The position numbers were made by a program, and so were the translations under genes. Below, in pieces: positions 1 through 57,321 of a DNA stretch of 64,000 nucleotides. The notes under the pieces are model-generated. The model did no database searches and was not told the origin of the DNA. It saw only the letters and a list, made by a program, of their open reading frames with translations. Origin of the DNA: Zootoca vivipara (taxonomy: Eukaryota); assembly GCF_963506605.1 (NCBI RefSeq), contig NC_083285.1, forward strand, positions 42,036,001 to 42,100,000. The letters run 5' to 3'. The first letter of the stretch is position 1. Every line of letters starts with the position of its first letter.

Positions 1-168
1 ACTCTTTACAAATATAAAATATCTCATTTAGAGATCCAAAAAGTGCTACACAGACAAAGTCTGGTTGCTGGATAGTTCTGTAACATTTTCTCCTTTACAT
101 TCAAATGTAAAAGATTTCTGTTGATCTAACTAAAACAAAACTTTGCTTTAATCTCATTCACATTAGTT

Positions 169-1740: not shown

Positions 1741-4700
1741 CTGGAAATAAATGTGGCAATCCAAAACTAAAGGGCCTGGGTTAAAAACTACGTCACAAAT
1801 ACGCAACATGTCTCTAATGATTTATTTTAAAACATTTATAAACCGCTTAATATTTCAGAAAACTAACACGATTTAGAAGGCAGGATACATGAATACAGTC
1901 ATAACTCGGCTCCCAAACACCTTAGGAGTCGAACGTTCCGGCTCCTGAACGATCGAAAACCAGAAGTGAGTGTTCAGTTTTCCAAATTGTTTTTTGGAAG
2001 CCGAATGTCTAGCGTTGCTTCCGCTATTGTTTCCGGCGCACCTGCGCAATCAGAAACCAATCAGAAGCCACGCCTTGGTTTCCAAACATTTTGGAAGTCG
2101 AGCCGTACCAATGCAGAGGTTTTTCTAAGACACTGAACCATGGATACATCCGCAACAGAATAAAGCTTGTGGAATCTCTTTCCTTAACAGATGTTAATGA
2201 ACTAACCTACAGTATTGCAAGTTCTACTAAAATAATATGCTATTTTATGGGCTCAGAGCATTTTGGAAAAATGTAAGTTGTTGTGTTGTGTTGTGTAGTA
2301 TAGTGTCAGTGCCCCTAGCAGTTCAAGTGTTGCTCAGCCCTCAGGTTACTGTCCTAGGTTTATACCAGATGCAGCTTACACGTCTCCTAGCTTTTCATTG
2401 TTGCTGTAAAAGCTAGAAATGTAGGAACTTTAGAAATGTGAGAACTAGGATTCTCAGGAAGGCAAGTTAGGAGAAAATACCATATATGCCAACCGAATGG
2501 CAATTCTGTGAACCCATGGTATACATGCGGAGACATGTATGTTTATAGTTGTAGGCATTTGTATACACAAGTGTCTATACATACACACACAGTCCTGCAA
2601 ACTTTATTCCAGCATTGTTGATTGTTGATAAGGTGTATTTTTACCTGGCTCAATGGTGATCACCATGCCTGGCTGGAGGGGGATTGATCGAGATACATCG
2701 GGGGTGTCGTGAACATCCATTCCCAGATAATGTCCCACATGATGAGGGCAGTATTTCCGAACAGCCTACAAGTCAATGACATGTTCGTAAAGCAAGTGAA
2801 ATGTGAAGGGATGTACACATTTCTTCAGCGCTGAGAGTGGAAACATACATTGAAAGGGAAGTATGCAACTGATTCATAGTTCTTGCTTCTGTACAACCAG
2901 CATCATTTGCGTGGTCAACCCCTTTGATTCCTCTCATTTGCCTTCTTTTCCCTGAGCCTCTCTCACAAAACCACAATGTTTAGGTCCTAACGTTCAAATT
3001 CACAGGCAGCTGGCTGAAGATAAAAAGAAAGCCTCTAACACAAACAATATAAGGCGTTTATTGTTGTGACTACAACTAGCTTTAAATGTTTTGCTTTAAA
3101 TTGCAGGCCTATCAGTGGGAATCAGCTTCAATAGCCAAAAATGCAACCTCCATTTTGAGATACAGTTTTTCTCTGACCTCTTACCGGTAGATACACTTAA
3201 ACTGTGCTCATGAAGCTCCCTGAAACATTTCCCTGACTACCACTGGAAGGCAGGAGTACTGCAGCTAAAAGGATCACTTGTCTGTCTCACCACAATAATT
3301 CAGATTTCCCAACAGCTAATTCACAAAATGCTCTTTTTAATTGGGCACTGTGTAGAATTAGGATCTTCACCTTTTTCCACTAGCCAACATAGGCAGTGGT
3401 TGGAATTGCTCCTAGTACCAGTACTTACCTTCTCTCAGTGAAGGGGAATAGCAGGATACACACCAACTGCTGTCCATCTCGAGCAGACAAGTGCCTTTTT
3501 CTAGCAGGTTGTCCCCAGGGTTTTTGTTTTTGTTGCGTGTGGGGAGTGCATTCTGCATTTTTTTGGTTTATTTATTTTTGTACATTTTAATTGCTTTTTC
3601 ATATAAACAGAAGAAAACTAGGACAAATTCAGAAGTATTGCCACAAAGTTGCTATGTCTGATTTCCAACCAAACTGTAGCACGTATACTGTACTTTGAAA
3701 CTCTCTGCACACTGACATCATGCAAGCATCTTCACTGTACAGTACTGTACTCTATTCACCACCTGCTTAGAACATTTTTGTTTAGCCAAACCAATCCAGA
3801 CATGTAGATGTTGATGCATTTTAATCTCTTTTTCCGTTTGCATTTCATCGTTTTTAAATACAGGTAGGTAGCCGTGTTGGTCTGAGTCGAAGCAAAATAA
3901 AAAAATTCCTTCAGTAGCACCTTAAAGACCAACTAAGTTTATATTTTGGTATGAGCTTTCGTGTGCATGCACACTGTGTATCTGAAGAAGTGTGCATGCA
4001 CACGAAAGCTCATACCAAAATATAAACTTAGTTGGTCTTTAAGGTGCTACTGAAGGAATTTTTTTATATTGTTTTTAAATGTCTTTCATTACTTGCTTTT
4101 ATTTAGTTTTAATATCTCTTTTACACCACTTAAGAGATTTTGTTACAATCAAGTGGAATATAAATTTTGTTAAATAAAATACTGTACTCCCCCCCCCCGC
4201 AACCCAAAATCTTCCTCCACAGTAGTCAACATGTTCTCAAGTGGCTGACAATAATCGTTTTGCACAGTAAATAAAAAAAGAATGCCATGTAGAATAAAGG
4301 TCTTCGCTAGTGGTTTGAGTTCTAAGCGCTTTACATTTTTCTGTTAACTTCTCCATCAAGGCTAAGGTCTAAATAGTTTGTACCATTTGTCAAAGGAATT
4401 TAATGTACCTCCAACCTCTAGCTACAATGCGTTTGGCTGCCACAAAAAGGAAATATCAAGAAGTTCTTAATACATCAAATTCCCAGCCTCACCTTCATAA
4501 ACTGACAGCAGTGCTAGCTCAGTATTGATGTCACTGAGCTGCAGCGACTCTCCAGGGTCTTTTATACCTGGCAATGCCAGGGATTGAACCAGGGAGTGTG
4601 TTAATGCAGCTGACTTATGGCTCATCCTCTGTGTGCATTTTTAAAAGGACATATTCAGCCTGATCCAAGTCACAGGATTGGCTTTTACTTTGAACAGGGT

Positions 4701-7700
4701 CTCTCTAATTTGCAACATCTTTCGACGTATCATAGAGAGGGAATTGAATTTAACTTTTTTAAAAAAGCTTCCTATAGAGGTGAACATCTGACCTCCCTCA
4801 AATAATTCCGGGGAGTGGCAATCAAAAGAGGGAAATAACCTGTGCTGAAATACTATTTGTGCCTGTATCTGTCCATCAAAGAACAAAGCAAGAAAAACAC
4901 ACCTGTTGTGTGTGCAGCATTACCCAGCGAAGCAGAATCAAAGTGACTCATTAATAGAAACTTCCCGAATAGTCGGATTCCTACTTTTTATGAGAACAAA
5001 ATCCCGCTGTGAGAATACCTCCCGTAACTCTCACCACCACCAAAAAACGAAGCATTTCCCTCTCCTCGCCTGCCCCCTGTGGCAGTTCTGTTTAATGATA
5101 TCACAGGCAAGTTAGAACAGTCCCACCCCACTCAAATGACACTTGTCAGGAATTAAAACTATTGCATGCCTGAGTTAGCTGAATGTTCTGCCATCTGCGG
5201 GACGAGAGAGGTACTGCTACCAACCCTTGGTTTTACAAGACACATCCTTTCTGGACCTGGAACAATACCAGAAGCACCCACATTGACAGGAAGTTGGCAC
5301 TTCGAAATTGCAATGGCCAGTTTTGAAGGGCCTGTTTGCTTTTTTTTTAATGGAGAAAGGCAGCAGATTACTTCCTTACATCATTATCTACTGAAAGTAC
5401 CTTGAAGAGGTGGCTCTCAGGGGTGCTTTTCTGTAAGATCCCCAAATCTTTTAGCTTCTGTCCAGTGAGGGTCAGCATGAGACTGTAAATGTTCTCTAGG
5501 CTCACGCCTGGAGAACACAGCCTCAGGCAGGACTTCTGGACTTCCAGTACAGCCTCGTACAATTCTGCTTGGGGACTGGTGAACCTGAGGAGGAGAGAGC
5601 AATGCAAACCACTTCAAGCAGGGTTTGAACAGGAAGGAAAGCCTGTCCAGGCTACAAAATAATGATGTGATGTGACCCTCCCGAAACTGTTCCACATCAG
5701 AATGCAGGTGGAGAAGTGCACGTTCGAATACTTGCCTCTTATCAAATACTCTGAAGAAGTGTGCATGCACACGAAAGCTCATACCAATGACAAACTTAGT
5801 TGGTCTCTAAGGTGCTACTGGAAAGAATTTTTTTATTTTGCATCAAAATTTGGTATGTTAAGGAGAAGACAAGGCTTAAAATGCTGGCTTTCCACACAGG
5901 AAGGGGAATGAGTGCCCCATCTGTAGTCTTTTTTAAAAGTAACTTTTACTGTATTTTCCAGATAGAACATACAAAGGATGCACAAAATATGAATACAAAC
6001 TAATTCTCCCAACAGAAGCCCCACCTGCATTCTGAAGTGGAACAGAACCATGTGAAATATCTAAATGAGTAGAGTAGTTCTGCATCACCACAGCCATAAG
6101 CCATTACCCTCATGCTGAAGTTTGTGAAACAGGCTGATCGTTCTGTACTGAGCAAGAACATGCAAGGATAAGCAGGGGAGAAAAGCCCCTGAAGCACAAC
6201 GAACTAGAGAAAGGACAGTGGTGAAGCAGAGACACTTTTCAGGAAACTCAACAGAGCAAAGCTATCACAGGTTTATTGAAATTGTACCTGGATTCATTTT
6301 CCCAACACCCTCCAAAAACTCCCCAACAGATAGATGCAGGCATGCTCAGGAGGCTGCAAGTTGCAGCTCTTTCACGGCCTCAAAAACAGCGTGGGATTCT
6401 CCTGCTGGGAACAGAACCTACCTGCCATTGATGGGCCAAGTGCGGGTGATGTCGCTTACATAACAAGAGTATTCGCATCCCCCATCCAGTAAAACCATTT
6501 CTCCATCCTGGGGCAGAAGAAAAAGCAATTCATGCAACCAGAGGCAGAAAATAAGAGAGAACTCTTTGAACTTGAATTTATGCATAATAGTGGGTGGGAT
6601 AAACTACTACTACTTTTTCGTCAGACAGAAGACCAGGGAGTTGGAAGCTGTTTTCCAGCTGTAGTCCTGCCCTTTCTTGAACATCCAGTCTGCCTACCTA
6701 GGTTAGGCCAAAGCAATTTTAAAAAGTTGGTGCCATGTTTGCTCAAGAAAGTATGAGATACAAAATAAGCATCTTCTAATCAGATCAGCTTCTCCTAGTG
6801 CAGAGCTTTAAAATAAAATTCTGAGTTACACAGAACTCTACCAGCCAATAGATTAGCCAGGCATGTCAAACTAGCGGACCTCCAGATGTTTTGGCCTACA
6901 ACTCCCATGATCCCTAGCTAGCAGGACCAGTGGTTGGGGAAGATGGGAATTGTAGTCCAAAAAATCTGGAGGGCCGCAAGTTTGACATGCCTGGATTAGA
7001 CAGATGGGAGATTCTTAGCTATACAAAAGAGGAAAAGCTGTTTATGCTCAATTACAGATTGCTCCAATGACCCATGAAGCCAACTGCAGGTAATGCAGGA
7101 ATGAAGACCTGTGACCTTCCAAATGTGGTTGGACTACGATGCCCATAATCTTTGAGCATTGGCCATGGTATCTGGAGATTATGGGTGCGGAAGTTCAACC
7201 ATACTTGGAGGGCCACGGGTTCCCCATCTGTGTCCTAATGGTAAATGAATATATTTGAAATGTTTTGCGTTGTCCATGATTTAGCTGAAGTAACTAAAAT
7301 CTTTGTCATAGATGACGACTTCATGCTCTCTACTTTATATAAGTCCCTCTAAACGTAAATGGTCACCCTATTTTGATGGGCTCTTCTTAAAATCACAGAC
7401 TGCTTGCATTATAAGGCCTGCCTGCAGAGACTTGAATGGGACAGACGTAATCATCACACTCACTGTCTTTAAAAAAACAAAACCATTCACTTATTTTAAT
7501 AGAATTGATATAATATTATTTTATAACATGCTGGAAGCATATTAAAAACCTTATTGTGATCTCTGTGACAGTTCAGCTCAACTGGATGGAATGCGTACAA
7601 AAGATTCTGATAAACCTCGAAATCCATTTCAGGGCAGCTGTGATCAGTGTTCTTAAGTTCCAGAAGGGAACGGTGGAGATAAAAGACCTTGTTTTAAGAA

Positions 7701-10700
7701 CTGAGTCTCACTAGTAATATGCTACTCTCGAAAGAGTCCACCTGCTGCCCTGCGACAAGAGGGCCTCCCTGTGCTTGTGCACTTCAGCTGTTCGTTATCA
7801 TTCCTATATCCCCCCCAATCTCCCTCAAAGTAATCAGAATAGGGAAATCCCTTCCTTAGTCAAAAGCCTCCCTTTCCCCCAGCAATTATTAGTCACCTGT
7901 TAAAAAGTATCATAATTTTGGAAACTGGCATTCACCAGTCTCTTTGTAAGGGAAGGAAGGAAGGAAGAGAATATCTACTTCTGAAGAAATACTTTTTTTA
8001 AATGACTGAATAATAAAGACCTGGACTCTGTGACACTACATTCAAACCAAGAAGGGGAAAACAGTGTGAGAGGAATTCTGCAGGGACCATCCAGATATGA
8101 GAACATGCATTAAATCTGTTCAGTTTTTATGTGCAGAAATATAATCCCTTATTATTTCCCACACAAGGAGCATCATGTTTGATGTAGATGTATGAGAATG
8201 TCCCAGAAGTTATTTGCTTGGCTTTCTCAAGAGGGAGTCCCTCTCTCTAGACACAGGGTAGGCAGAAGTACCCTGGGACAGAGCAGAGCTGGTTTTACTT
8301 AATAAACCATTCAGGAACAGGACTGTGTAGTCCTCTTTTTAAGATGTCTGAGTCCTGCTCTTTCTTCACTGCTCTCTTCAATGGACCAATGATCACACGC
8401 CCCTCAAGGACAGGCGCTGCTGCAAAACCACTTGAGTTTGAGGCTTTGCCATCATGGCGGTTAATATATACAAGTACCAGTCGTGTAACTGGGCCAGACA
8501 GTGTGATTATTTCTACGCCAGCAACCCTGATGGTTGATGGCATCAGCCAGACCATTCAGTCAGGTTGATTCATGCAATACGAGCCACAATAACTTACAGC
8601 AAACATGGGACCCTCCAAGCTCATGGCATCCGAATAGGTATCTAGTCAATTACCAGAGTTGAAGAAAGGGTGATACGGAAGATGACTGTTTGAAAATATT
8701 CTCTAAGGTAGATCTTTTCTACACTGACTTGGTAATTGGCTCTGCTCCCTGGAGGACCTTCTTTGCTTTCAAACACATTTTCGTTGCCTCCAGCATCTTT
8801 CTTCTACCCTTCACAAATCAACCGACGACACTGGTACACAGTAGGAAATAATATAACAGTCTTCCCTTAACCTGGTGCCCTGCAAGCGTTTGGGACTACA
8901 ACTCCCATCAGCCTCACCTAGCAAGGTCAATGGTCGTGGATGATGAGAGGTGCAGTCCAACAACATCTGGATGGGTTAGGTACAGGCACCCCCAAACTTC
9001 AGCCCTCCAGATGTTTTGGACTACGATTCCCATCATCCCTGACCACTGGTCCTGTTAGCGAGGGATCATGGGAGTTGTAGGCCAAAACATCTGGAGGGCC
9101 GCAGTTTAGGGATGCCTGGGTTAGGCCGTAGCTAAGACTCTAGCACTGTATAGACACATTGGATTCGCAGGACACTTCCATGGTATGCTGATTACTAGAA
9201 AAATCTGTAAGGGTGATGTTTGTATAGCTCTCATTCAGAATGGGGGACTCAAATTGTACCTCCAAAATCAATGTGCTCCCACACTAGCAAGAAAGGTTAA
9301 GTTTAGTATACATGTGGTCATATAGCAGGGATGGGGAACCTTTGGCTCTCAAGAAGATGCTACATTACAGCTGCCATCACCCCTGATGGACTGGACCGGC
9401 GGATGAGAGTTGTAGCCCTGCAACGTCTGTTGGGCCACATGGAGCTGTTTATAAATCACTCTTCAACATAAATAAATCACTCAGCTACCATATCAAAATT
9501 CAGCACATAGCAATTTTCAAAAAGTATGAAAACCTGGCATGTTGGTCTCTTACGGTTGAAACTTGAGACATGAAGTTTAAAGCATAAGAGAGACCAGGCA
9601 TGCCAACACAGAGTAAGCCAATCGGCACAGGAGGTGGAATGTTGGGCCCCAGGGGTTCCACTGTCTCTTCCAATATTTGCATTTGGGAAAGGGGTGCTTC
9701 CAGTAGCAGGCAGGAAAAACTGATGCTTGCTGAATGCAAAAAAATTGGAGAGAAATCACAATTAACAGAAAAAAGACAGGGAATGAAATATTGGCTTATG
9801 AAACAAGGCTTATCTGATCTAAACACTATTTGCTCACTGAGCACACAGTGGTATGTTAGGAGTGCTTCTGACTGAGTTGCTGTTCAGCACATTTCAAAAT
9901 GTATTGGGCCAAATAAATCTTGTTTTGGCAACTTCCGAGATTTCATCACTCCTTTCTTTGCTTGCAGAATGCAAGCCTCCTTTACCAAGACACACACACA
10001 GAACACTTTATGTGCAGACACCCTCTGAAGGCAATTACTATCATTGAACAGTGAAGGTTCAGTTGTCAAACCGAAGATCGTAATGGGAAGAACAGTAGTT
10101 TTGGAACAAGTCCATGTGAACTCTGTGAGGACAACACCCAAGATAAATGTTACAGCTTCTCGGATTCAAGTCAGATATGCAAACCTAACAAGGAAAAAGC
10201 ACCGCAGAGTCACTCCATAAGCTCAGGCTTTGCTGAGGCATACTCCTGACCACACCCTCTCCTCCATGTTAAGCTAGCTATGGTAAGAGATGGCGTGGAC
10301 ACACACCCAGGAAGCAGAGGTCACAACTCTGAGGGGTGCTTAAAACAGCAAACATGGGTCAGAAGAAAACTTCTCCAAATAGTTTTGCAAGGCTTCAGAG
10401 ACATGAAGTTATCGGTAGGTTGCAGTAGGAAGTGTCAGAATCCATTTGGTTACCTTGATGAGCTGGTTGTTTTTCACATAATGCAAGGTGTTGGATCTGT
10501 TGCCACCTGCAACCACAGGAGGATAAGCCAAAATATCAGCACCACGAGCCCGGCACTCAAATTCAAACTGGAATAATTAAGTTGGAAATAAGAAAACCCA
10601 TTAGTTCTAGCTCAGGATTGCACAGGACACATCCGAGCCCTTTTCTGCCTGTGCATCGGACAACAAACCAATATGGTAGAGCAGGGGTCAGCAAACTTTT

Positions 10701-13700
10701 TCAGTAGGGGGCCGGTCCACTGTCCCTCAAACCTTGTGGGGGGCCAGACTATATTTTGGGGGGGGAAAGTGAACGAATTCCTATGCCCCACAATGCATTT
10801 TAAATAAAAGGACACATTCTGCTCATGTAAAAACATGCTGATTCCCGGACCATCTGCGGGCCAGATTTAGAAGGTGATTGGGCCGCATCTGGCCCCCGGG
10901 CCTTAGTTTGGGGACCCCTGTGGTAGAGGATACAATGTTGGGCTTGAATTCACTGGTAGTTTTTAAGTGGCTAAATCAATTTCAGATTTACACAACTCCC
11001 TTTGCCTCGGACAATTCTTCCGTTTGTTGTATTTATCTGGCTCCTTGATGTTTCTGATTTGGGCTCATTGGATGAACTATTCGAAAGAAATGTGTAAAAC
11101 CAGGAGGCACTTCTAATTCCATTAAGCGCATTCTCTGTGGCAGGCTTAATCCATATCCTAGGCAAATCATTACTTATGCAGGGAAGAAAGACTGTACACA
11201 TTCTTGGATACAAAGGTATAAAACCCTCATATGAGAGTGCATATGAAATAAAAAATATTTGTTGTTTGACTAACAAATGCAAAATTATAAACACCTCTTA
11301 AGGTTTGTCAGGTTTGTCCTCAACTCCTCTGAAACCTCACTCACATATATGTTATCCTTTTGAAAGGAAGTAAGTTTAGGGAAAGATGCATAATGAGTTG
11401 TGGCAGAGCAAAGGCCTATATTAAGCTCCCATTGTTGTCTTAGAACAGGCATCCCCAACCTGCGGCCCTCCAGGTTTTTGGCCTACAACTCCCATGATCC
11501 CTAGCTAACAGGACCAGTGGTCAGGGATGATGGGAATTGTAGTCCAAAACATCTGGAGGGCCAAAGGTTCGGGATGCCTGTCCTAGAAGGAAAACTAACA
11601 GTGCAATCCTCCACATGTCTACTCAGAAGCCAGTCCTAGTAAGGCCAATAGGACTTATTCTGAAGTATACTGTAAGGTAAGGTAAAGGTAAAGGACCCCT
11701 GGACGGTTAAGTCCAGTCAAAGGCAACTATGGGGTGCGGCGCTCATCTTGCTTTAGGCCGAGGGAGCATATGTTTGTCCACAGACAGCTTTCCAGGTCAT
11801 GTGGCCAGCATGACTAAACTGCTTTTGGCACAACAGAACACCGAGACGGAAACCAGAGTGCACAGAAATGCTGTTTACCTTCCCGTCACAGTGGTAACTA
11901 TTTATCTACTCATACTGGCATGCTTTTGAACTGCTAGGTTGGCAGAAGCTGGGATAGAGTAACAGGAGCTCACCCCGTCACGCAGATTTGAACCACCAAC
12001 CTTCTGATTGGCAAGCCCAAGAGGCTCAGTGTTTTAGATCACAGTGCCAGCCGTGTCCCCTCTGAAGTATGTGTGCATAGGACTGCTGCCTAAGAGGTCA
12101 ACGCAATACTAAGAGGGGAGATGTTATTGTTTCATTTTTGTTCTATTTATCTGTGCTTTTATCTTGTATTTTTATCTTATGAAGAGCAGTATATAAATTC
12201 AATCAATCAATCCCAACTGCATGAAGAATTATGATGCTTTCTAGGATACTACAAAGCACATACCTTAGCATACAGAAATGCTTCATCCACTGGAGCTTTG
12301 CTTGCAAACATTGTCTCCACAAACGCCTGTCAAAACATCAAATATAGAATAAACATAACTTAGGACCCAAAACCAATCTATGGCCTGTGATGACAAAAGA
12401 AGGCTTTTACTGCTGGGCAGGTTCGCCAGAGGTGCCAATAACTGCCTCTTTCACAGCATTCCCCATGCTGGCTTTTGCACCACAAAAGAGGGAAATATTT
12501 GTGTTAGGATTGTATAAATTTTCAAAACCATACCCCTGTTTCTGTCATTACCCTCAAAAGCTGACAGAGGTTTGTTCATGGAAGTCTGAAACAAAGCGGA
12601 GTCAATTATGTACAGCATCTTTCAGTTTCTCAAACAGTTGTTAGTTTGTGTCTGTGATATAAAACCCACCTGGGTCTGGATGTAGATCTGCCTGGACTGC
12701 TGTAAATACATTCTAATCCTGGTTGAGGAGGGAAATATGGTGGCAAGATTCCAAATGCTTGAGATCTCTTCTTGGCTTTGGGAAAACCACCATTAGTCAG
12801 CCAGGTCCCCAACATCTAACACCCAGTTAAACAAGGTAGCCAGACATGGGAGAAAAACACATTGCATGCTCCCATACAGATCTCAAGGCAATCTGTCCAG
12901 ACCAGTCACTTCTGGCTTTATGGTACAGCAGCCTCCGGAAGCAGAGCCATAACTACTCGATTCAATTCAAACCAAGCCAGTTAGCACAAGCCATGGTTTC
13001 TGATACTGATCTGCTATCTAATCTAAAGTACTAGTTACAGGTAGGTAGCCGTGTTGGTCTGAGTCGAAGCAAAATAAGAAAATTCCTTCAGTAGCACCTT
13101 AAAGACCAACTAAGTTTATATTTTGGTATGAGCTTTCGTGTGCATGCACACTTCTTCAGATACACTAGGTGTATCTGAAGAAGTGTGCATGCACACGAAA
13201 GCTCATACCAAAATATAATCTAAAGTAGTGATTCTTTACTTGAAAAATCGTGCTTAACCTTCATTAATCTTCCGTAATCATGGCTTAATGTGATGCCCGA
13301 ATTAAGCCTGTATCCTCAGTCACTTCTCATCAAACCATTGTTTTCTTTTACAATGCAATAAAATAATGTCCTTAATGAGTAAGTAAAGTTGCAAAGCTTA
13401 TCTAAAGCAACATGAATATTTATGGTAACAAGCGTCAACACAGCAACATAGTATATGCCAACAAAACAACAAGTTGTAATATTAAGAGCAATAATCGTGT
13501 CAGATTTACAAACACTTTCACAGGGTTTGGTACCGGTACCCACTTGTGGGTCCCAGACCATAGGTTGGTAAACACTGTTCTAGAGAAGAAATCTGAGTGT
13601 TGGAAGATTCTGGACAGAGAAATGGAATCCACCACTACAATATATAATTACGAACACCAGTTTGGATAGCTTTAAAAGGGCTTAAAAGAATTCATGGATA

Positions 13701-16700
13701 ATAGCACCATCAATGGCTGATAGCTGTGCTGGCTGTGTACCACCTGCAATGTTTGAGGTGCCATGCCTCCGAATATTAGTTGCTAGGTAAACAAAAGTGG
13801 GGAGAGGACTGTTGCATTGATGTCCTGCTTGAATGCTTCCTATAGGCACCTGACAGGGTGCTAGAATAGATGGGCTTTTGGTCTGATCCCAAGAGGCTGC
13901 TTTTATTCTCAGTAATAGTCCAATTTGGAAAAGGCGAACCAGGAATTACTATCATTAAATATATCATTATAAAAATCTATAGCCAAAGAGCATGTTTTCA
14001 AATTTAATTTGAGATTGATCTTATCCCACAACATCAGAAATCATTTCCATAATGGATTATTATGGATTTGTAAAGGCCAGTTCTGCTTCTTAAAAATGCC
14101 CCTCAAAGTTTTATTTCAAAACACTGCATTCTAAGACCAACCACGGGATGTCACTAGATACATAACCCAAGATGGAATTGGCTCAGATTGTGAAACTAAG
14201 TAATAACAAAGAAGATCAAGTAGATTTGGTTCCCACTCAATTGGTGTTTTGTTCAATTACTTTGTATGAAATTAATTGTTGTGTTAGCCAATAAAGGTCG
14301 TGCTGTATTGGAAAGCTTAGTATACAAATGCCTTCCCATAAAATTGAAGAATATATTTTCTTTGGGATTACCCACTTATAAAAAAGAACAGTCCCTAGAA
14401 CTATCCAACCAGAAGCAACCCAAGTAGGTCCACATCCCATCTACCCTTTGAAAAGTGTTTCTGCACCATGACAGATTTTCTGTTGACACCGTTAGGCACA
14501 ACTGCCTTGTCCCATACCTGTGATGTCACCTTGCCAGCAATCTTCATTCTCTCAATCTCTGCAGCAGATTTAACCAGTCGCAGGTTTTGCACTAAGTGCC
14601 TGATTGCTCGGATACGATTCTTGCTTCTAGCTTTGATTTCTGCCAGGTGTAGCAAGTAATCAGAATGGAGTTGTGGATGCACAGGTTTAGCAAAATCATA
14701 CCAAACCATACTAGATTCATCTGTGAAACAGAATATAAACACGTTAGTTTAATTTGCCATATATATCTCGGGGGAAATCGGTACTTTGAAAATCTGCCTG
14801 AAAGGAATTAGCAAGAACTATTGCTGAAGCTATTCTTTCTATTCTAATGCACCATCCACTTAGAAACAAAATTGTATACTTCTATCGACTATATCTTTTG
14901 GAAAGTTTGCCTGTTCTCCATGCATCTGAGGACACCACTTAAGGTATCTTAACCAAGCTTTACATGATGGTTCCTGAGATCAAACAGCAGGTTTTCATCT
15001 CTGTTTGAATACAATTTTGAATCAAGGTAGCAGACTGAACCATTCAAACCTGCACTGATTTTAATACTTAAAATTCCTGAGCAATGCAATGTATGAGGCT
15101 GCAAGCTAATTATAAGCTGAGAAAATCATAGAGTTGGAAGGTACCTTGGAGGTCATCACCATAGCTGCCAAGTTATCCCTTTTTTTAAGGGAATTTCCCT
15201 TATGCTGAATAGGCTTCCTCGCGAGAAAAGGGAAAACTTGGCAGCTATGGTCATCACCCAGTCCCCCCGCCCAATGTAGGATCTACAATGCAGGATACAA
15301 TTATAGATATTTCACAGCAGAAAATCATCTATGTAAATAGGATATCCACTTCCCTCAATGTAAATAGGTCATCTAATCTTATGGAAAACCAGGCCTTTGG
15401 ATGATATATGTCAGAAAGAAGTAAGCCTGCCAAGTGGGCACATTATTCTTCCCTAATAGTCATTCTTCAAATAAAGGGATCCTGAAGGGACAATGCAAAT
15501 GTTTGCCATGGTACTGAAGACCTCTGTGATTTTTCTACTATATTAGTAAAGATCCCTGAGCCACAGGCCATCCAACAGCCGCAGGAGAATCTAAAATGTC
15601 AATTATGTAACTTTTCTCAAATATTTTTAAAGGGTGGGGGGATTACAACCAGGTAGCTGGGAGCACAAAATTTCTTTGCATGTTTCCACTATGCTCTCCA
15701 CCTGTGAGCAACCCACCCAAAAGCTTTGTACACCCTGCCAAAACTCCTACCAATCCACATCTCCTATATGTTTCTTCTTATTCTTACCTTTCAATTTAGC
15801 CACCAGGTGCCTAAACTCTTCTATGGTATATGCGTCATCCACGCCCGTGAGAGCCACTGCCCCGTCTGTCCCAGACCGTGGTCCATCCCACAGCTCTCTG
15901 CTTGGATCCCGCCGTGGGACAAACAGCAGAGCTTTGTGGGATGGCAAAGGTTTGCCAGGCACAGTCTGTAGCACCAAGATGCTGTCAGGCTCCTGGAACC
16001 CGCACAAATACAGGAAGTTAGTGTCCTGGTGGAAGGTGTATGGAATATCATTGCTCATGTAGTAGGTAGGATTGGATAGCAGAATCACTGTGTGGTCCAT
16101 CCCTGGCACCTCTCTGTGTATCTCAGCCATCAACTTGTGCCTACGGAGAGCATACTCCACTTGCGACAACCCCGGTGTTACTTCTCCTGTGAACAGAAAT
16201 CAAAATAGCTATTCTTGTTTCAAAAACACCTCTTCATGCTGTTAATTTTCCACGCTATGCTGCTAAGCAGCAAATTTTCCTCCTTTCAATTGACTCTCCT
16301 TTCCACCTCACACCCCCTTTTCTCCTCATCACTATTCTTTTGCCTTCTGCAAGGTGGGAAACTTGCTGGACTCTAGCTCCCATCAGCATCAGCCAGAATA
16401 ACCAATGGCTGGGGTGATGGGAATTACAGTCCAGCAACATCTGGAGGGCTACAGGTTGGCTACCCCTGCCCTGCTCCAATGTGTACACATTCTCAGCGTA
16501 TTTCACAGTCATGTGTAAGAAAAAAGCTCCATTTGATATTAACAAACATTAATTCTCAAGGCATTCCACAAGCTAACATAAGAATATTAATTTTTAGATT
16601 GGAGAATAGGTGATGGTGGAGAAAGAAAATAGGTACACTTTAACCCAATTGAAATACTACACTTTTTCAGCTTCTGGATATTGAACAGACAATGCTAGTG

Positions 16701-19700
16701 CTGGGTGCAACCTTTAATGTGAAGTCAGAAGAGATATTAGGTTGCCCAGCGAAAATTTCTCCAAAAATCAAACAGTGAACAATCATCGGACTATTTTTAG
16801 TATTATAAGCTATGTACCTAATAGCTCCAAGGAAAAATTCACTTTCTCGGAACTGCAGATTTAATCTGTCAACCACATTTTATCTGCAAAGAACAGAGTC
16901 TTTTTAACAAAACTGGACTGAAGAAACAAGAGCTGCTGATTGCAAATGAGGTACACTCTTGGCATAATCTATGACCACAATCCTGCACTCATAAACGTTA
17001 ATGAAGTTAAGTGGGACGTTTTATGTGAGAACTGCACCCTTAGGCTACAATCCCTAAGCAAGCTTACATGGAAGGAAGTCCCAGTGAAACTGATAGGAGG
17101 CTCAGGCTGCAAGCAGTTAAATATTACTTTAAAAGGTCTTTGCCTAGAATGTTTATGCTACCTGTTTCATATGGCTACCTTGCATTCAGAATTTTTTCCT
17201 TTACAATAGTCTGGGTTGCCTCTAAAGATCCCATGAGTGGCATTCTACTCCTAGAAAGGTCACTCCCAACACCCGCTAATGAAAGGGGGTGGAGGCCACC
17301 TCTGTTCATTCCAGCCTCTTCCCCTCTGCTGAGGGACCCCACAGAACAGCATGGGAGGTGGTGCAGGCAAGAGGTAGAACTGGTGAAAATTATGCCTCCC
17401 ACTTCCATTAACAGGTGCCTCCACTGGATCAAACCCATAATGAAGTGACATGTGAACCAGCCCATAGTAATGTAATTTTAACTTACTAGTAGAAAGGCAG
17501 GGTATAAAATAATACACAAATAACCACACAGTCCATTCCTATACCAATCTGATTGAACTCAGTGGGACTTAAACATGCATGACAACAGGACACATGTTTG
17601 GAGAGAGAGGCAAATCATAGAATACAAATGGAAAATAAAGGTGTTTGAGATAAAGGAAAAGGATTGTCACTTGTGGAAGAAAGCATGGTTGAACAACAAT
17701 GAGTTTCAAGTGTGGGTGAATGATTCCATTTCTGGAAAATTGATTGCTAGCTATACGGTCATACCTTGGATCTCGAACGCCTTGGCTCCCAAACAAATCA
17801 GCGCCCCAACTACTGAAACCTGGAAGTGAGTGTTCCGGTTTTTGAAAGATTTTTGGAAGCCAAACGTCCGTTGGGGCTTCCACAGCTTCCTGCAGCCAAC
17901 TGGAAGCCGCACTTTGGTTTTTGAACGTTTTGGCAGTCGAATGGACTTCCAGAACGGATTCCGTTCGACTTCCAAGGTATGACTGTACAATTAAATGTCT
18001 GGCCCAGGCCTAATTTACAAATGTCAATCAAGCAAACAGAGATTTTTTTATTTACAAACTTTTTTATTCCACTCTTCTGTCAGAAGCACATCATTAAAAT
18101 GGCCTAAAGGCCTAGTGGAATAAAACTGTCTTCCCTGCCTACTTGAAGACCCATAAATATGGGCCCAGACTGACATGGGAAGGTATTCCAAATTTTCACT
18201 GCTATGATAAGGAAAGACCTGGCATTCTGCCCACCTGCTGCAACTCTGAAGGTAGGAAAATATGGAACTGGTGTTCAGAAAAGTTCTTGGGGAAGGATAT
18301 AAGTTTGTTATCTGGAGAAGTGTGCATGCACACGAAAGCTTATACCAGAACAAACTTAGTTGGTCTTTAAGGTGCTACTGGACTTTTTAAAAAATGTTTT
18401 AATTTATTTCGACAGCGTCAGACCAACACGGCTACCCACCTGAATCAAGATAAGTTCTGTCAATCGTAAGAACTATGTGGATTTTTTTTCTGCTGCTGCT
18501 GTCATGGAAATATTTGTTGGCCATACCTGCTTGGTTTAGATGTTGCCTTTGCTGACAGAAATGTACATTTTCCATTCCCCCATTTCACTGTTCTATACGT
18601 AAAATGTTTGCTGTATTTATCTCAGTTTTATCTCATATTGGGATGCTCTATTATTTTAAGCAATGAGTCTGAACTGATTGAGAAATGCATACATAGGGAT
18701 GATACCTCTTTGGAATTTTAGGAAATACTTTCTGAATGTGAATTCCACTAAGGATGTACAGTACCATTTTCCTCATCTTTGTGCAAAATAAAAAGAATCT
18801 AATGACACAGCTCAGAAACTAGTGTCCGTGGTTGCTATCCTATGCAAACATGGCAGGGAGTAAGTCCCAGTGAATACAGTGTTTCTTACCTCTGAGTAAA
18901 TATGCTTAGACTGTACTGAAATGATCCTTACCTGCTTTCAGAAGATGTGGATGTGTGAAAGGGCTAGGTTGACCTAGGTACCGGTTTGGAATCTTCCTTT
19001 GCTGAACAGGCTGGATGGACAATTTCCGAAAGAAACAGAACTTGCAGTCTAAAAGAAAACAGCTGCATTGTGTCAAGCTGAAAGACCTTTCCCTTTCTAG
19101 GTGTAATACAGTCAAGTCACACGCTTGCCATTCTTTTCACCTTTTTTCTAAGGCAAATCCACATGGAATAACCTGCAGTGCAAGCCTATAAATGTCTACT
19201 CAAGATGTAAGCCCCACTGAATTCACAAGTACTTACTCCAAAAAGTACTGTAGGTTATGGATGGGAGATTCAAAAAGATTTAAATCTTCAAGTTACTTAC
19301 AAATGTGACAGAACAGAATTGCACAAATTCTCTTTAACTTTCAGAAAGGACATCAGTTTTAAGAATTTTTTTGTCCTCAGTATTTCCATCACAAAGGCTG
19401 CAAATACCTTAGCTGTGGCACTTACCCTCCTTTTACCAGGGTAAGGTTAACTAATACTCTTCTACTAGAGGGATAGGAAACCTGTGGTTATCCAAACATT
19501 GGTGCTCTCCATCTACCATCAGCCCAAGTCTGTATGGTCCATGATCAAGGATGCTGGGAGCTGCAATCTAATGACCTCTGGGGAGGACACAGGTTCCCCA
19601 CACCTGTTCTACAATATAACTAAAATATTGTAGTGATGCTTCTATTAACCATCCTTCCAAAACTATACAATGAGATTAAAGTGTGTGTGTGTGTAAGAAT

Positions 19701-22700
19701 GTGACTGTATTGCAAGTTACATTCTGGTACAGTAGTACCTCGGGTTACAAACGCTTCAGGTTACAAACTCCGCTGACTCAGAAATAGTACCTCAGGTTAA
19801 GAACTTTGCTTCAGGATGAGAACAGAAATCGTGCTCCGGCAGCACGGCGGCAACAGGAGGTCCCATTAGCTAAAGTGGTGTTTCAGGTTAAGAACAGTTT
19901 CAGGTTAAGAACGGACCTTCGGAACGAATTAAGTTCTTAACCAGAGGTACCACTGTATTCCTTTTATCTCTTCCTGTGCAACACAGTATTTTTAATAGTA
20001 TTTGTTTTGTAAGGACACTGTCCTAACTCTCCTCTGCCCTGGTAGACCCTGTAATGCTTTTTTCTCTTCCTTGGAACTGAGTAGGGGACTACCACATGAC
20101 ACGAAAACATTTTACCGCCTGTCCAATTATTAATGTACTCTTATCAATATAGATTTTATTCATATGCACTTGGAATACACTGAAAATATTGAGAATCGGA
20201 CTTATTTGAGGGGGGCGGGTATCAAAGTATTTCATTCAAGTGCCAAAATACTACGTTTGCATAAACTGCTAACACTCACAAGAGTGGGCAACCAAGTAAG
20301 TGCATAAAAATTGCTAATAGATGTCATTACAGACCAAGAATACAATCTAGAGAAAATCAGTAGTAGTTGAGGTTGAAATCCTATGCATAAAAACCATTGA
20401 ATTAAGTTGGGTTGGGGGTGCCAAACTCTGCATAGGTTCAGGGTCTCCTATACACACTTCCTTAGCAGCAAGCCCAGTTGAACACAATAAGTGTTTCCAA
20501 GTAAATATGCATGGGATTGGATTGGACTACATACACACTGAAGTAAATGGAAACTAGAGTGATGGCTGTCTACTACAGTGATGGCAAACCTATGACACGT
20601 GTGTCAGACATGACACGCAGAGCCCTCACTGCTGGCACGCGCCCCATCGGGCAATTCACGCTGTTGTTGCCCCCCCCCCCAATTCTCCTGCTCCTCCTAC
20701 AGCTTGTCTCCGCTACAGCTTGTCTCCACTGTTAAAACCCGGATAACTTTTTGTTGTTGTTGCTGGTAGCCAGATTGGTTTTTTAAAAACTTTCTGTGCT
20801 GTTTCTTTCTGGCGCTTTTGCAGACTATGTCGGTGCTGCATGTTAGTTCTAGCGAAGGTATTATTCGTCATTTATTTCTGTTCTCTTTCTCCCCAAAAAA
20901 ACACAGCAGCTTTGGGGCACCCCCAAAAAAGCAAAGCAACTTTTGCACCCCCCCAAAAAAACCTCCAAAACTTTGGTCAGCAGCTCCCCCCAAAAAGCTC
21001 AACAACTCTGGGTTTTTGGTTTGGTTAAATAATTAGTTTTTGGTTTATTAAATACAGTTATATATTACAATTATACATTTTTGTTATTTAAACTATAAAT
21101 ATCACAAAATAATGGTTTTTTTTCACAAAGTGACAAACCACCCGAGTTATGCTTGGTTTTTTGGTGAATTTTGACACACCAAGCTCAAAAGTTTGCCCAT
21201 CACTGCTCTACTAGAAGGAAGTACCCAATTATTACCCCTCATAAATCTGCTCAGGAATGCAACTTTTCAGCTTTATACTTAGCATGTTTACCCAGAAACT
21301 CAATAGGACGTATTCCAATATAAGTACTGTATGAATAGGTTGCCCACATTTTCATGCAGAAATAAATCCAACAGAATTTAAAGGGTCTACCATCAGGTAA
21401 ACATGCATAGGAATACAATCTCCCCCACCACTTGCATTTTGCAGCAGTATCCCCAGGTGCAAATACTACAAAGCTCCATAGAACTTTCTTCCTAGAAAGG
21501 GTGCTCAGGACTACAAACTTAGCACCCAATCCAGTCATTGCATTTTCCTTTGAGTTTTCTTTAAAACTCAATGTGATCATACAGGTCTTCCTGTCATATA
21601 AATCTTCATTTTTTACACATTTTGAAAGGTGACATACAGTATAGTACAGGCATCCCCAAACTTCGGCCCTCCAGATGTTTTGGACTACAATTCCCATCAT
21701 CCCTGACCACTGGTCCTGTTAGCTAGGGATCATGGGAGTTGTAGGCCAAAACATCTGGAGGGCCGCAGTTTGGGGATGCCTGGTATAGTATGAAAAATAT
21801 AAAAGAACTAGGTTATCTTTAGCATTCACTTTCTCAATTAAAAACCTTTAATGTATGTCCTTTTAATCTGTAATGTGTAACGGATTGTTTCAAAGGTTGA
21901 CAAGGAAGCTTAACCTTATTATTATTTTTCAATTCAACAATTCAAAATTAGTAAGATAAACAAAAGACTTTGCAACAATGGATATTTTTATTTGCTTTTA
22001 TAGAATTGCACAAATATATTCTATCAGAAATGTACAAATGGAAGGGCCAAAATAAAGCAGCCACAGTTACTTGATTTAATGAATATTAGGGAGAATCAAA
22101 TCATTTCAATAAACAGAGGTTTGAACAAATGCAAGTATAAGAGAAACTATACCAGGTAGTTTCACAAACTACACAAAATCCAGCCATACTGTACTTGAAA
22201 ACACAAGTCCACTAATCTCTGTGTGGAAGAGTTAAAACACATAATTTCTCCAACTGAGAACAATGAGACTTAAATGAGTATAAAACTCAGCTAATTCATG
22301 GCCAGAAATGAATTAAGGTAACGAAATTCAAATTAAATGAGAATTTCCACTACATAATATTTTGGTCCTATCTTGAACTGCATTGTCTGAAAACCATGCT
22401 CTCTTTTTATGACCTCAGTTCTGAATTCAGAGGTTGATTTAGTTTTAGCGACCCTAAACACCCGAGAACCTTTGTCTTTCGTCTTTATAGCGGTATGGTC
22501 TTCCGCTTAACCTAATATGGCCTTCTGTAGATTTTGTGTCTTATCATAGAAATGTATTTTAACTGGATTAATAACCCAGTTACATGAACTGGTTTCCGTT
22601 GTCCATGGTGGAAACTAAAGTGCACACACAGTGGAACCGAGTGCCTAGCGTAAGAAACTCCCACCCTCCCCAGAACGAAGGAAGCTCATCTTTAGAAGGA

Positions 22701-22776
22701 AAGAAAGTCTCTGACCTGAAAAGTTGCACATGCCCCTTACAGGCTGGATAAGTCTCTGTGCTAGGAACAACACCAT
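1574..22776 (-). CDS. XPNPEP3: Xaa-Pro aminopeptidase 3 (M24B, Icp55 orthologue), spliced gene, 10 coding exons, 1515 nt, 504 aa
   Basis: Exons in transcript order: 22776-22716, 19048-18932, 16186-15788, 14720-14518, 12326-12264, 10567-10454, 6507-6422, 5584-5401, 2765-2645, 1740-1574. All junctions are GT-AG and phases are consistent. Motifs: [68 protein letters not shown] (M24 metal ligands). Confidence 0.96.
1896..2102. mobile_element. Truncated copy of the 17756 MITE family
   Basis: TA-CAGTCATAACTCGG start; shared GAAGTGAGTGTTC.G.TTT and TTTTGGAAGCC blocks; right TIR missing. Confidence 0.65.
2645..2765 (-). CDS. XPNPEP3: XPNPEP3 coding exon 9
   Basis: 121 nt, AG/GT flanks; [40 protein letters not shown]. 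Confidence 0.95.
3861..4067. mobile_element. Penelope-like element end (pseudo-LTR), inverted pair
   Basis: Perfect 79-bp arms 3897-3975 and 3989-4067; flanking direct repeat GTTTTTAAAT (3850-3859, 4071-4080); GTAGCCGTGTTGGTCTG terminus recognised as reptile Penelope-type. Confidence 0.75.
3978..4015 (+). ncRNA. Minimal type I hammerhead ribozyme motif
   Basis: GTAT-CTGAAGA-A-GTGTG(CATG)CACAC-GAAA-GC-TC-ATAC: stem I GTAT/ATAC, CUGANGA box, stem II hairpin, GAAA, palindromic AGCU in place of stem III, UH = UC. Confidence 0.65.
5401..5584 (-). CDS. XPNPEP3: XPNPEP3 coding exon 8
   Basis: 184 nt; [50 protein letters not shown]...HLFK. Confidence 0.94.
5750..5842 (+). mobile_element. Penelope-like end fragment with hammerhead core but no 5' stem I
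   Basis: CTGAAGAAGTGTGCATGCACACGAAAGCTCATACC...TTAGTTGGTCTCTAAGGTGCTACTG. Confidence 0.7.
6422..6507 (-). CDS. XPNPEP3: XPNPEP3 coding exon 7
   Basis: 86 nt; [28 protein letters not shown]. Confidence 0.95.
6858..6993. mobile_element. ~136-bp palindromic hAT-type MITE (family A)
   Basis: CAGGCA...TGCCTG ends; internal CCAGATGTTTTGG.CTACAA.TCCCAT inverted pair. Confidence 0.8.
8983..9118. mobile_element. hAT-type MITE family A
   Basis: Same consensus; inserted at the end of an older related palindromic repeat. Confidence 0.8.
10454..10567 (-). CDS. XPNPEP3: XPNPEP3 coding exon 6
   Basis: 114 nt; [38 protein letters not shown]. Confidence 0.95.
10682..10920 (+). mobile_element. hAT (Charlie-like) MITE family B
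   Basis: CAGGGGTC...GACCCCTG TIRs; TSD TGGTAGAG. Confidence 0.85.
11446..11580. mobile_element. hAT-type MITE family A
   Basis: 8-bp TSD TCTTAGAA/TCCTAGAA. Confidence 0.82.
11673..12060 (-). mobile_element. Sauria SINE
   Basis: (ACCTTT)n tail, tRNA-derived head; TSD TCTGAAGTAT (11659-11668, 12061-12070). Confidence 0.88.
12264..12326 (-). CDS. XPNPEP3: XPNPEP3 coding exon 5
   Basis: 63 nt; [21 protein letters not shown]; not in the ORF track because it is short. Confidence 0.94.
13126..13163 (-). ncRNA. Minimal type I hammerhead ribozyme motif (sense to XPNPEP3 pre-mRNA)
   Basis: Reverse complement reads GTATCTGAAGAAGTGTGCATGCACACGAAAGCTCATAC, all core elements intact. Confidence 0.65.
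13171..13208 (+). ncRNA. Minimal type I hammerhead ribozyme motif
   Basis: Same 38-nt motif as 3978-4015. Confidence 0.65.
13660..13910 (+). mobile_element. Degenerate CR1 3' end
   Basis: TTTAAAAGGG...ATTCATGGA...CATCAATGGCT...TAGATGGGC...GGTCTGATCC. Confidence 0.55.
14518..14720 (-). CDS. XPNPEP3: XPNPEP3 coding exon 4
   Basis: 203 nt; [21 protein letters not shown]...[22 protein letters not shown]. Confidence 0.95.
15160..15249. mobile_element. 90-bp hAT-type MITE nested in a CR1-type tail
   Basis: TIR CATAGCTGCCAAGTT; TSD GTCATCAC; interrupts ATCATAGAGTTGGAAGG...GGTCATC...CAGTCC. Confidence 0.8.
15788..16186 (-). CDS. XPNPEP3: XPNPEP3 coding exon 3 (AMP_N domain)
   Basis: 399 nt; [19 protein letters not shown]...[20 protein letters not shown]...[11 protein letters not shown]. 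Confidence 0.96.
17756..17985. mobile_element. Tc1/mariner (Tigger-like) MITE
   Basis: TA-CGGTCATACCTTGGA ... TCCAAGGTATGACTG-TA. Confidence 0.8.
18310..18446 (+). mobile_element. Penelope-like end fragment, hammerhead core mutated (CTGGAGA)
   Basis: Same family; ends CAGACCAACACGGCTACCCACCTG. Confidence 0.7.
18932..19048 (-). CDS. XPNPEP3: XPNPEP3 coding exon 2
   Basis: 117 nt; [38 protein letters not shown]. Confidence 0.93.
19730..19955. mobile_element. Tc1/mariner (Tigger-like) MITE
   Basis: TA-CAGTAGTACCTCGGGTTA ... TAACCAGAGGTACCACTG-TA. Confidence 0.82.
20576..21205. mobile_element. Non-autonomous hAT element with CAGTGATGG TIRs
   Basis: CAGTGATGGCAAACCTATGACACGTGTGTCAG ... AAAGTTTGCCCATCACTG; TSD GTCTACTA/CTCTACTA. 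Confidence 0.8.
21647..21782. mobile_element. hAT-type MITE family A
   Basis: Perfect 8-bp TSD GTATAGTA. Confidence 0.85.
22716..22776 (-). CDS. XPNPEP3: XPNPEP3 first coding exon (start of predicted mitochondrial presequence)
   Basis: gccATGG Kozak context; [20 protein letters not shown] (Arg-containing, no acidic residues); phase-1 donor CAG|gtcaga fits the next exon; acceptor tgtccttgcag upstream puts the exon start at 22791. Confidence 0.75.
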
Positions 22777-23101
22777 GGCTGAACCCCCTGCCTGCAAGGA
22801 CAGCACCCACCACTACAGGGCGATCTCTGAGGGGAAACCGGAGTCCCTCTTCCTCTCTTTCCCAAGTCCCCACTCCCTAGCATGCCAGCCTAAACTAAGC
22901 TCAAATAGAGCACAGGCACGTTGAGAGGACCTTCTCTGCTTTGAGTCGAAGCTTGATGGCGTCATTACGCCCATTACGACCGGAGATTGCATCCCACTTC
23001 CTTCCTTCCGGGTGTGTGCGGTGCTCGCTAGGAAATTTTTATTTAGGCGACTAAGTAAAACGCCTGCTTGTAAAAACACACACGGGGAGACCCATACTCA
23101 C

Positions 23102-23210
23102 GCGCAGAGAGCCCGTTTAGTTTCAGTTATTGCCCTCTGGCGAGTGAAATAACTCGGTGTTACTATCCAAGTGGGAACGGCGGGGGCGGGACAACGGAAA
23201 GAGGCAAATG
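23102..23210 (-). other. XPNPEP3: Putative non-coding first exon of XPNPEP3 (5' boundary uncertain)
   Basis: Strong donor GC|GTGAGT at 23101-23096 inside the CpG island; no ATG in the preceding ~100 nt. Confidence 0.5.
23131..23143 (-). promoter_or_regulatory. CTCF-like motif
   Basis: Minus strand TCGCCAGAGGGCA resembles the CTCF core; motif match only. Confidence 0.4.
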
Positions 23211-23231
23211 TATTGGGCAACTCAGGTTTCA

Positions 23232-23246
23232 TTTCTGGAAAATTCC
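23232..23246. promoter_or_regulatory. Heat shock element (HSF site)
   Basis: tTTCtgGAAaaTTCc, three perfect alternating nGAAn units upstream of an Hsp70 co-chaperone gene. Confidence 0.7.
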
Positions 23247-23520
23247 GGTCCGCCCCGCGCGAGCGTCGCTCGAGGGGCCACGGCGGGTGGGTGGCGAGGG
23301 CGCAGTGGGAGGAGCAAAGGGGGAAGGCAGCCAGCGCAGCGGGAGCGGCAGCCTCGAGCGAGCGAGCGAGCGAAAGCTGACAGGGGGCGGGGCAGGAGGG
23401 GCGGGGAGCGCGTGCGCGTGGCGCTGAACTGAATTGCGCGTGACAGGCAGCGGGGCCCCGAGCAAGAGGGAGGGGAAGGAGGCTGGGAACTTTCGTTACT
23501 CCACTTGGAGGGAAGCTCAA

Positions 23521-23548
23521 GCGGCGGCGGCAGCAGCAGCAGCAACAA
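23521..23548 (+). repeat. (GCG)3(GCA)5 trinucleotide tract in the ST13 5' leader
   Basis: GCGGCGGCGGCAGCAGCAGCAGCAACAA. Confidence 0.8.
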
Positions 23549-23603
23549 CCACCGCAATAGTAGCAGCCGCGCGGGGGACGCGCGGGAGGGAAGTGGGCGA
23601 GCC

Positions 23604-41203
<17,600 letters not shown>

Positions 41204-57185: not shown

Positions 57186-57321
57186 CAGGCATCCCCAAAC
57201 TTTGGCCCTCCAGATGTTTTGGACTACAATTCCCATCTTCCCTGACCACTGGTCCTGTTAGCTAGGGATCATGGGAGTTGTAGGCCAAAACATCTGGAGG
57301 GTCGCAGTTTGGTGATGCCTG
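57186..57321. mobile_element. hAT-type MITE family A
   Basis: Perfect 8-bp TSD AACTACCC. Confidence 0.85.

What the first reader, a model, noticed from the sequence alone, without database searches (positions are those of the whole stretch)
13031..13227. Back-to-back hammerhead pair in an XPNPEP3 intron, one copy on the pre-mRNA strand
Seen: two intact copies of the 38-nt motif diverge around a 3-nt loop (minus 13126-13163, plus 13171-13208), giving a 50-bp perfect hairpin bounded by a 12-bp duplication. Transcription in either direction yields a ribozyme together with its own antisense. Known: minimal hammerheads with a palindromic AGCU instead of stem III act mainly as dimers. Inference: on either strand the antisense arm is made first, so the nascent RNA should trap the ribozyme in a hairpin; this self-neutralising layout could let a potentially cleaving element persist in a housekeeping intron. 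This is the best candidate for an undescribed system here; activity is unproven.
Basis: partly seen in the sequence, partly recalled or inferred. Interest (0 to 1): 0.7.

Follow-up and report, generated by a model that had tools for sequence, protein, structure and literature searches.

The report
Two-armed Penelope retrotransposon insertion, hammerhead palindrome
The back-to-back hammerhead pair is real, but it is a young insertion, absent at this site in other animals, of a very common Penelope-like jumping gene whose insertions often have two opposed arms, so the hairpin is likely a by-product of how the element inserts rather than a device that protects the host gene.

Summary
In detail: two exact 38-nt minimal-hammerhead motifs diverge around a 3-nt loop, form a 50-bp perfect palindrome inside a 12-bp duplication, and lie in an XPNPEP3 intron. 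The interpretation mostly fails. The motif is the 3' end of a Neptune-type Penelope-like retroelement (RT plus GIY-YIG ORF found in a long copy) with 13,219 exact copies; 381 sites have the same tight back-to-back junction. Of 120 sampled loci, 63 carry an adjacent inverted arm, with 12-13 bp target duplications. Inverted arms and opposite-strand hammerhead pairs are already described for these elements. The site is empty in a same-species sample and three other organisms. Only 1 of 146 arms starts at the cleavage site. One sharper result: 58 of 60 two-armed insertions pair a tailed with a tailless arm, which points to priming from both target nicks at the two known reverse-transcription start sites.

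The parts
13019..13030 (+). Target-site duplication, left copy (12 bp)
   Evidence: one copy only at the empty site; family mode 12-13 bp
13031..13168 (-). Long arm: 3' end of the Penelope-like element, from 5 nt before the hammerhead to the end of the tail
   Evidence: near-identical to the 3' end of the ORF-bearing copy L157
13031..13070 (-). About 40-nt optional tail (between the two 3' end clusters of the family)
   Evidence: 3' ends cluster at +88..96 and +129..132 from motif start; tail defined in PMC11167929, PMC8557442
13126..13163 (-). Minimal type I hammerhead motif on the pre-mRNA strand; predicted cut 13130/13129
   Evidence: features as in PMC4209133; activity untested
13166..13168 (.). 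3-nt loop = junction of the two arms (last three bases of the long arm)
13169..13215 (+). Short, tailless arm; ends unusually early, sharing 3 nt (13216-13218) with the duplication
   Evidence: only 4 of 266 arm hits end before +70
13171..13208 (+). Second hammerhead motif, antisense to XPNPEP3
13216..13227 (+). Target-site duplication, right copy
12327..14517 (-). Host XPNPEP3 intron (2,191 nt, GT-AG)

Best explanation
This is a young two-armed insertion of a Neptune-type Penelope-like retrotransposon, absent at this site in other animals, likely made when both nicks of a staggered 12-bp cut primed reverse transcription, both copies stopped just past the hammerhead and were joined end to end, which likely makes the ribozyme-trapping hairpin a neutral by-product. 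Shown: family identity, copy number, target duplication, empty site, two-armed layout as a common form, tailed/tailless pairing. Inferred: double priming, end-joining of the two cDNAs (templated filler at many junctions), neutrality. The hammerhead is predicted to be inert here for two reasons: the hairpin, and, from literature, the need of such minimal motifs for a second same-strand copy or the element's protein.
For: 13,219 exact motif copies; 381 tight back-to-back sites with differing junctions. L157 has the same layout on a large scale: inverted tailless arm, 841-aa ORF with RVT_1 (E 4.5e-11) and GIY-YIG (E 5e-5) and a CX4CxxC linker, hammerhead, tail, 13-bp duplication. 63 of 120 loci have an adjacent inverted arm; 41 of these 63 have a 12- or 13-bp duplication; 58 of 60 with both 3' ends defined pair tailed with tailless (p = 3e-15 against 50:50). 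Gap between two complete motifs runs continuously from 1 to 3,188 nt in 40 loci, so this copy is the short end of a range. Empty site in 4 of 4 runs laid. Unpaired intact copies: 7 sense, 7 antisense by exon calls; 30:30 (10:10 at strong skew) in 60 targeted loci and 9:6 in 15 incidental copies. 126 of 146 non-targeted arms were copied through the cut site, 1 starts at it. PMC11167929: an anole element cleaves and extends both strands, starts at two sites that define the tail, its hammerhead cuts only with protein and is not needed for insertion.
Against: Among loci with one intact arm and an incomplete antisense partner, 16 of 19 have the intact arm on the skew-inferred sense strand (sign test p = 0.004, post hoc, one of several subgroups); not explained. 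The sample is small, from two contigs, and chosen for young exact copies. The short arm here ends about 45 nt earlier than the usual tailless start, so its priming site is atypical. PMC11167929 saw no difference in start site between strands in vitro.
Confidence: 0.85

Rival explanations
1. Selection filter: unpaired sense copies cut host pre-mRNA and are purged, while paired copies are masked by their antisense arm and persist in introns.
For: Folding predicts complete masking. 16 of 19 intact-arm/incomplete-partner loci are sense by skew. Window: the intact copy at 3978 and the two degraded solo copies in XPNPEP3 are antisense. bioRxiv 10.64898/2026.07.22.740005 reports that tandem hammerhead retrozymes are under-represented in Xenopus introns (passage read; no strand analysis found in it).
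Against: Unpaired intact sense copies lie in introns of a DAAM1-like gene, a kinase gene, a CUB-repeat gene (2 copies) and a spectrin-repeat gene, and a YY1-like gene (name recalled; no Pfam or PDB hit). 7:7 direct, 95% interval 23-77% sense; complete loss of sense copies has P = 0.002-0.06 in simulation depending on the intronic fraction. Minimal motifs show no monomer activity (PMC4209133).
Confidence: 0.08
2. Snap-back or post-insertion fold-back: one cDNA folds back on the self-complementary stem II, or a later recombination event, and generates the inverted arm.
For: Stem II is a 14-nt palindrome; 5' ends cluster near it (22 of 60 inverted arms at -3..+17); arms of a pair are identical over 80 nt in 23 of 38 cases.
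Against: The arms differ systematically at their outer ends (tailed versus tailless, 58 of 60) with the target duplication intact on both sides, and have independent 5' extents up to 2 kb apart; a fold-back copy should be centred on one point and share the outer end.
Confidence: 0.04
3. The hairpin works as a double-stranded RNA source (small RNAs against the family, or an editing substrate) and is kept for that.
For: 50-bp perfect duplex inside a transcribed intron; hundreds of such hairpins exist. Small RNAs from inverted Penelope copies in Drosophila are recalled, not checked.
Against: The site is polymorphic and not conserved. No read of this locus was seen; A>G differences in family reads also occur in DNA contigs.
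Confidence: 0.03

Closest known systems
EN+ Penelope-like elements, Neptune-type, with inverted 5'-truncated copy and one-sided tail (PMC8557442, passages and Fig. 2 legend)
   Same: RT plus C-terminal GIY-YIG ORF with CX2-5CxxC linker, heavy 5' truncation, adjacent inverted copy, 30-40 bp tail at one end, hammerhead in the terminal repeat.
   Different: This copy is only the two 3' tips (185 bp); clear 12-13 bp target duplications; clade not tested by phylogeny.
Minimal hammerheads of metazoan PLEs (PMC4209133, results and discussion read)
   Same: Core boxes, extra base between positions 9 and 10.1, G10.1-C11.1, short helix I, palindromic 15.2-16.2; the paper already reports pairs on opposite strands 100-700 bp apart and motifs in reptiles.
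   Different: Here the pair is 7 nt apart and forms a perfect hairpin; no activity data for this sequence.
Anolis Poseidon element PAc (PMC11167929, main text read)
   Same: Two 3' end clusters about 40 nt apart; copies made through an uncut hammerhead; both target strands extended.
   Different: PAc is Poseidon clade; in vitro it showed no strand difference in start site, whereas 58 of 60 two-armed insertions here use one of each.
L1 twin priming (recalled)
   Same: Both nicks of the target prime cDNA, giving an inversion inside a target duplication.
   Different: In L1 the second primer copies upstream sequence; here both arms copy the same 3' region, so a palindrome results.

Membership tests
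EN+ Penelope-like element | ORF with RT and C-terminal GIY-YIG endonuclease in the family | tested here: met
   L157 ORF directly upstream of the same 3' end: RVT_1 and GIY-YIG over cut-off; 2 further copies give RVT_1 over and GIY-YIG just under cut-off
EN+ Penelope-like element | 5' truncation with adjacent inverted copy | tested here: met
   63 of 120 loci
EN+ Penelope-like element | Optional 30-40 bp tail at one end | tested here: met
   3' ends at +88..96 or +129..132; 58 of 60 two-armed loci have it on one arm
EN+ Penelope-like element | Full-length partial tandem (pLTR-ORF-pLTR) | tested here: inconclusive
   The longest copy among 120 loci is itself 5'-truncated; no full-length master was sought further
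Neptune clade | CX2-5CxxC zinc-finger linker between RT and EN | tested here: met
   CX4CxxC in P0001; shared with Nematis per PMC8557442
Neptune clade | Placement in RT phylogeny | not tested
   No reference PLE proteins were fetched
Minimal PLE hammerhead | Conserved core, extra base before helix II, short helix I, palindromic helix III remnant | tested here: met
   Sequence and fold against PMC4209133
Minimal PLE hammerhead | Self-cleavage as dimer or with protein | not testable with these tools
   No pile-up of read ends and 1 of 146 arms starting at the cut site give no sign of cleavage, but neither is a test of activity
Rfam hammerhead families | Match to covariance model | tested here: not met
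   No hammerhead family among 33 matches at E up to 1
Non-LTR retrozyme | Head-to-tail tandem monomers | tested here: not met
   Arms are head-to-head; no direct tandem at this locus
MITE / foldback DNA transposon | Fixed terminal inverted repeats and constant structure | tested here: not met
   Arms unequal, junctions differ between sites, sequence is the 3' end of an RT element
microRNA precursor | Rfam gathering score | tested here: not met
   Best 66 bits against 90

The most novel reading that the evidence does not exclude
The thousands of two-armed insertions in this genome record a specific mechanism: one protein dimer on one RNA primes from both nicks of a 12-13 bp staggered cut and uses each of the two start sites exactly once (58 of 60 tailed plus tailless), with both cDNAs tending to stop just past the uncut hammerhead. 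That would explain the tail and the inverted arm of Penelope-like elements by one step and is testable in the existing in vitro system. The strict pairing was not found in print in searches; the qualitative 'tail often at one end' is in PMC8557442.
Probability: 0.4. Interest if true: 0.45.

Novelty: new member of a known kind. Interest (0 to 1): 0.2.

Why it matters
The locus itself is one of hundreds of like palindromes and matters little. The family data matter modestly: how Penelope-like elements make their inverted and tailed insertions is described as unresolved (PMC8557442), and a young family with clean target duplications and near-strict tailed/tailless pairing gives a direct constraint. 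The data also suggest that intact minimal hammerheads are tolerated on pre-mRNA strands, in line with weak or protein-dependent activity.

Tried and rejected
Rfam: no hammerhead hit. Tiling 398 kb of four genes of known strand gave only 9 arm hits, 4 intact (3 sense, 1 antisense), too few alone. First skew grouping gave paired loci 36:15 and p = 0.048 for stronger skew; it misclassed some pairs as solo and oriented symmetric pairs arbitrarily; after regrouping p = 0.26. L258 and L259 were dropped from skew counts (under 3,000 unmasked bases). Exon prediction plus Pfam on 265 candidates left most loci uncalled: host strand for 14 of 77 unpaired intact copies. PDB search for the YY1-like exon gave nothing. 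No RNA holder was listed for the unique flank. RNA reads (3 runs, one study, about 6% of each read): family reads from other loci only, almost no cover of XPNPEP3, no pile-up of ends, strandedness unknown, so nothing on this locus. Longer arm, tailed arm or further-reaching arm versus host strand: 30:30, 27:33, 37:22, none significant. Dimer folding predicts an intermolecular stem II duplex rather than the active dimer and cannot judge activity. The 2017 paper on dimer cleavage of small PLE hammerheads is recalled only; it was not held. No earlier scan finding matched.

Full report
Observation. The described features are present: exact motifs at minus 13126-13163 and plus 13171-13208, a 50-bp perfect palindrome (13116-13165/13169-13218) with a 3-nt loop, and a 12-bp duplication (13019-13030, 13216-13227). 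The hairpin folds at z = -16. Flanking minus-strand exons belong to an aminopeptidase P gene whose best solved relative is human XPNPEP3; the insert sits in a 2,191-nt intron. The insert is 185 bp and asymmetric: the minus-strand arm is 138 nt, the plus-strand arm 47 nt.

What it is. The motif occurs 13,219 times exactly in the 1.44-Gb genome; an 81-nt version matching this subfamily 1,729 times; 381 sites have two motif heads within 0-9 nt of each other, with differing junctions. The window holds four more loci, one also two-armed. Upstream of the motif, long copies carry an ORF with RT and GIY-YIG domains and a CX4CxxC linker, which per PMC8557442 (passages) marks Neptune or Nematis Penelope-like elements. 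L157 shows the same layout as the finding on a larger scale, with a 13-bp duplication. That the host is a squamate reptile is my inference from recalled repeat types, not from a call.

Family anatomy. I fetched 120 ten-kb loci on contigs C1 and C2: all 78 distinct loci among the first 100 rows and the first 42 distinct loci. 63 of 120 have an adjacent inverted arm. Of the 60 with both 3' ends defined, 58 pair a tailed with a tailless arm, 1 has two tails, 1 is intermediate (p = 3e-15). 41 of the 63 have 12- or 13-bp duplications. In 40 loci both arms hold a whole motif, with gaps from 1 to 3,188 nt. Arms of a pair share the subfamily variant in 36 of 38 cases. Many junctions contain short re-copied pieces of the arm ends, as expected of end-joining (inference). 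The finding is the short extreme of this series; its short arm ends unusually early (4 of 266 arm hits end before +70) with 3 nt shared with the target.

Age. Laid on four further runs, single contigs cross the site without the insert: 13018 joins 13216 in a sample with the same species label (X7) and in organisms B and E; organism C also lacks it. In another same-species sample contigs run 22 and 24 nt from the unique flanks into the element, short of the tool's 31-nt bridging rule but consistent with presence. The insertion is therefore recent and likely polymorphic.

Is the hammerhead active? The sequence has the features of the minimal PLE hammerheads of PMC4209133 (parts 1-2 of 4 read), which showed no monomer activity and low dimer activity, and which already notes pairs on opposite strands 100-700 bp apart. 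PMC11167929 (main text read) found an anole PLE hammerhead to cut only with the element's protein, to be dispensable for insertion, and found no RNA reads ending at the site. Here, 126 of 146 non-targeted arms extend through the cut site, 1 starts within 2 nt of it and 19 start further 3'; family RNA reads show no pile-up of ends (weak, since cut RNA would decay and the reads come from other loci).

Testing the selection idea. (a) Direct: host strand could be called for 14 of 77 unpaired intact copies. Sense 7: L228 (DAAM1 hit), L199 (kinase, weak Pfam hit), L057 and L060 (between CUB exons), L080 (spectrin-repeat gene), L153:9530 (MROH2B-like, position inside the gene inferred), L171 (YY1-like, recalled). 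Antisense 7: L150, L181, L209, L234, L255 (Pfam hits; three have exons confirmed on one side only), L076, L244 (name recalled). 95% interval 23-77% sense. (b) Proxy: combined T-A and G-C skew of unmasked flanks was positive on the coding strand in 41 of 44 calibration segments. Unpaired intact copies: 30 positive, 30 negative, 10:10 beyond 0.04, mean -0.001 (60 loci, 2 dropped); incidental copies 9:6. Simulation puts complete loss of sense copies at P = 0.002-0.06 and a halving at P = 0.17-0.29. Paired loci are in strongly skewed DNA in 26 of 58 cases against 20 of 60 (p = 0.26). Against my reading: where an intact arm has an incomplete antisense partner, it is on the inferred sense strand in 16 of 19 loci (p = 0.004 before correction). 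bioRxiv 10.64898/2026.07.22.740005 (passages) reports intron avoidance for tandem retrozymes in Xenopus, a different class.

Mechanism. Most likely (0.85): the endonuclease makes a staggered 12-bp cut (duplication shown), both 3' ends prime reverse transcription near the element's 3' end (inferred; both-strand extension and two start sites shown in vitro for a relative), both cDNAs stop early, and their ends are joined, leaving two opposed 3' tips. The hairpin follows from geometry. Rivals: selection filter 0.08, fold-back 0.04, functional double-stranded RNA 0.03.

Novelty. A new member of a known kind. Inverted arms, one-sided tails and opposite-strand hammerhead pairs are in print. The near-strict tailed/tailless pairing, suggesting one RNA copied from both start sites, was not found in searches; figures and supplements were not seen. 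Interest 0.2; 0.45 if the single-template model holds.

Noticed in passing
window 3859-4074: Second two-armed insertion of the same young subfamily in another XPNPEP3 intron: tailed minus arm stops at stem II (no core), tailless plus arm intact.
   Followed up: partly
window 5750-5844, 18309-18442, 48545-48655: Three older single arms of related subfamilies; helix I broken, core changed, or motif missing; all antisense to the neighbouring or host gene.
   Followed up: partly
family-wide, L146-L265: 5' ends cluster at -3..+17 of the hammerhead (22 of 60 inverted arms), next to a pyrimidine-rich AG that looks like a splice acceptor; single copies ending there share no upstream sequence. PMC4209133 notes an intron ending at helix I in Drosophila Penelope.
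   Followed up: partly
subfamily: One subfamily carries AATAAA just 3' of the hammerhead; its unpaired copies leaned antisense (9:17, p = 0.12, first grouping), so a poly(A) signal could confound any strand test.
   Followed up: partly
L171:5005-5103 (minus): Unpaired intact motif with an 11-bp duplication on the sense strand of the first intron of a YY1-like gene (name recalled).
   Followed up: partly
window 22000-24000 and 43500-44100: GC-rich head-to-head promoter region of XPNPEP3 and an Hsp70-interacting-protein gene (HipN hit), and start of a mitochondrial-carrier gene further on.
   Followed up: no
window 6884-7205, 8884-9092, 11472-11554, 16359-16441, 21673-21756, 29344-29426, 57212-57295: Repeated hairpin element giving below-threshold hits to Rfam mir-5408; probably another dispersed repeat family.
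   Followed up: no
G000:C1:2777821-2779652 and C1:2216080-2216682: Four motifs in direct tandem at 598-bp spacing (a layout that could form an active dimer), and a duplicated back-to-back pair at 512-bp spacing.
   Followed up: no
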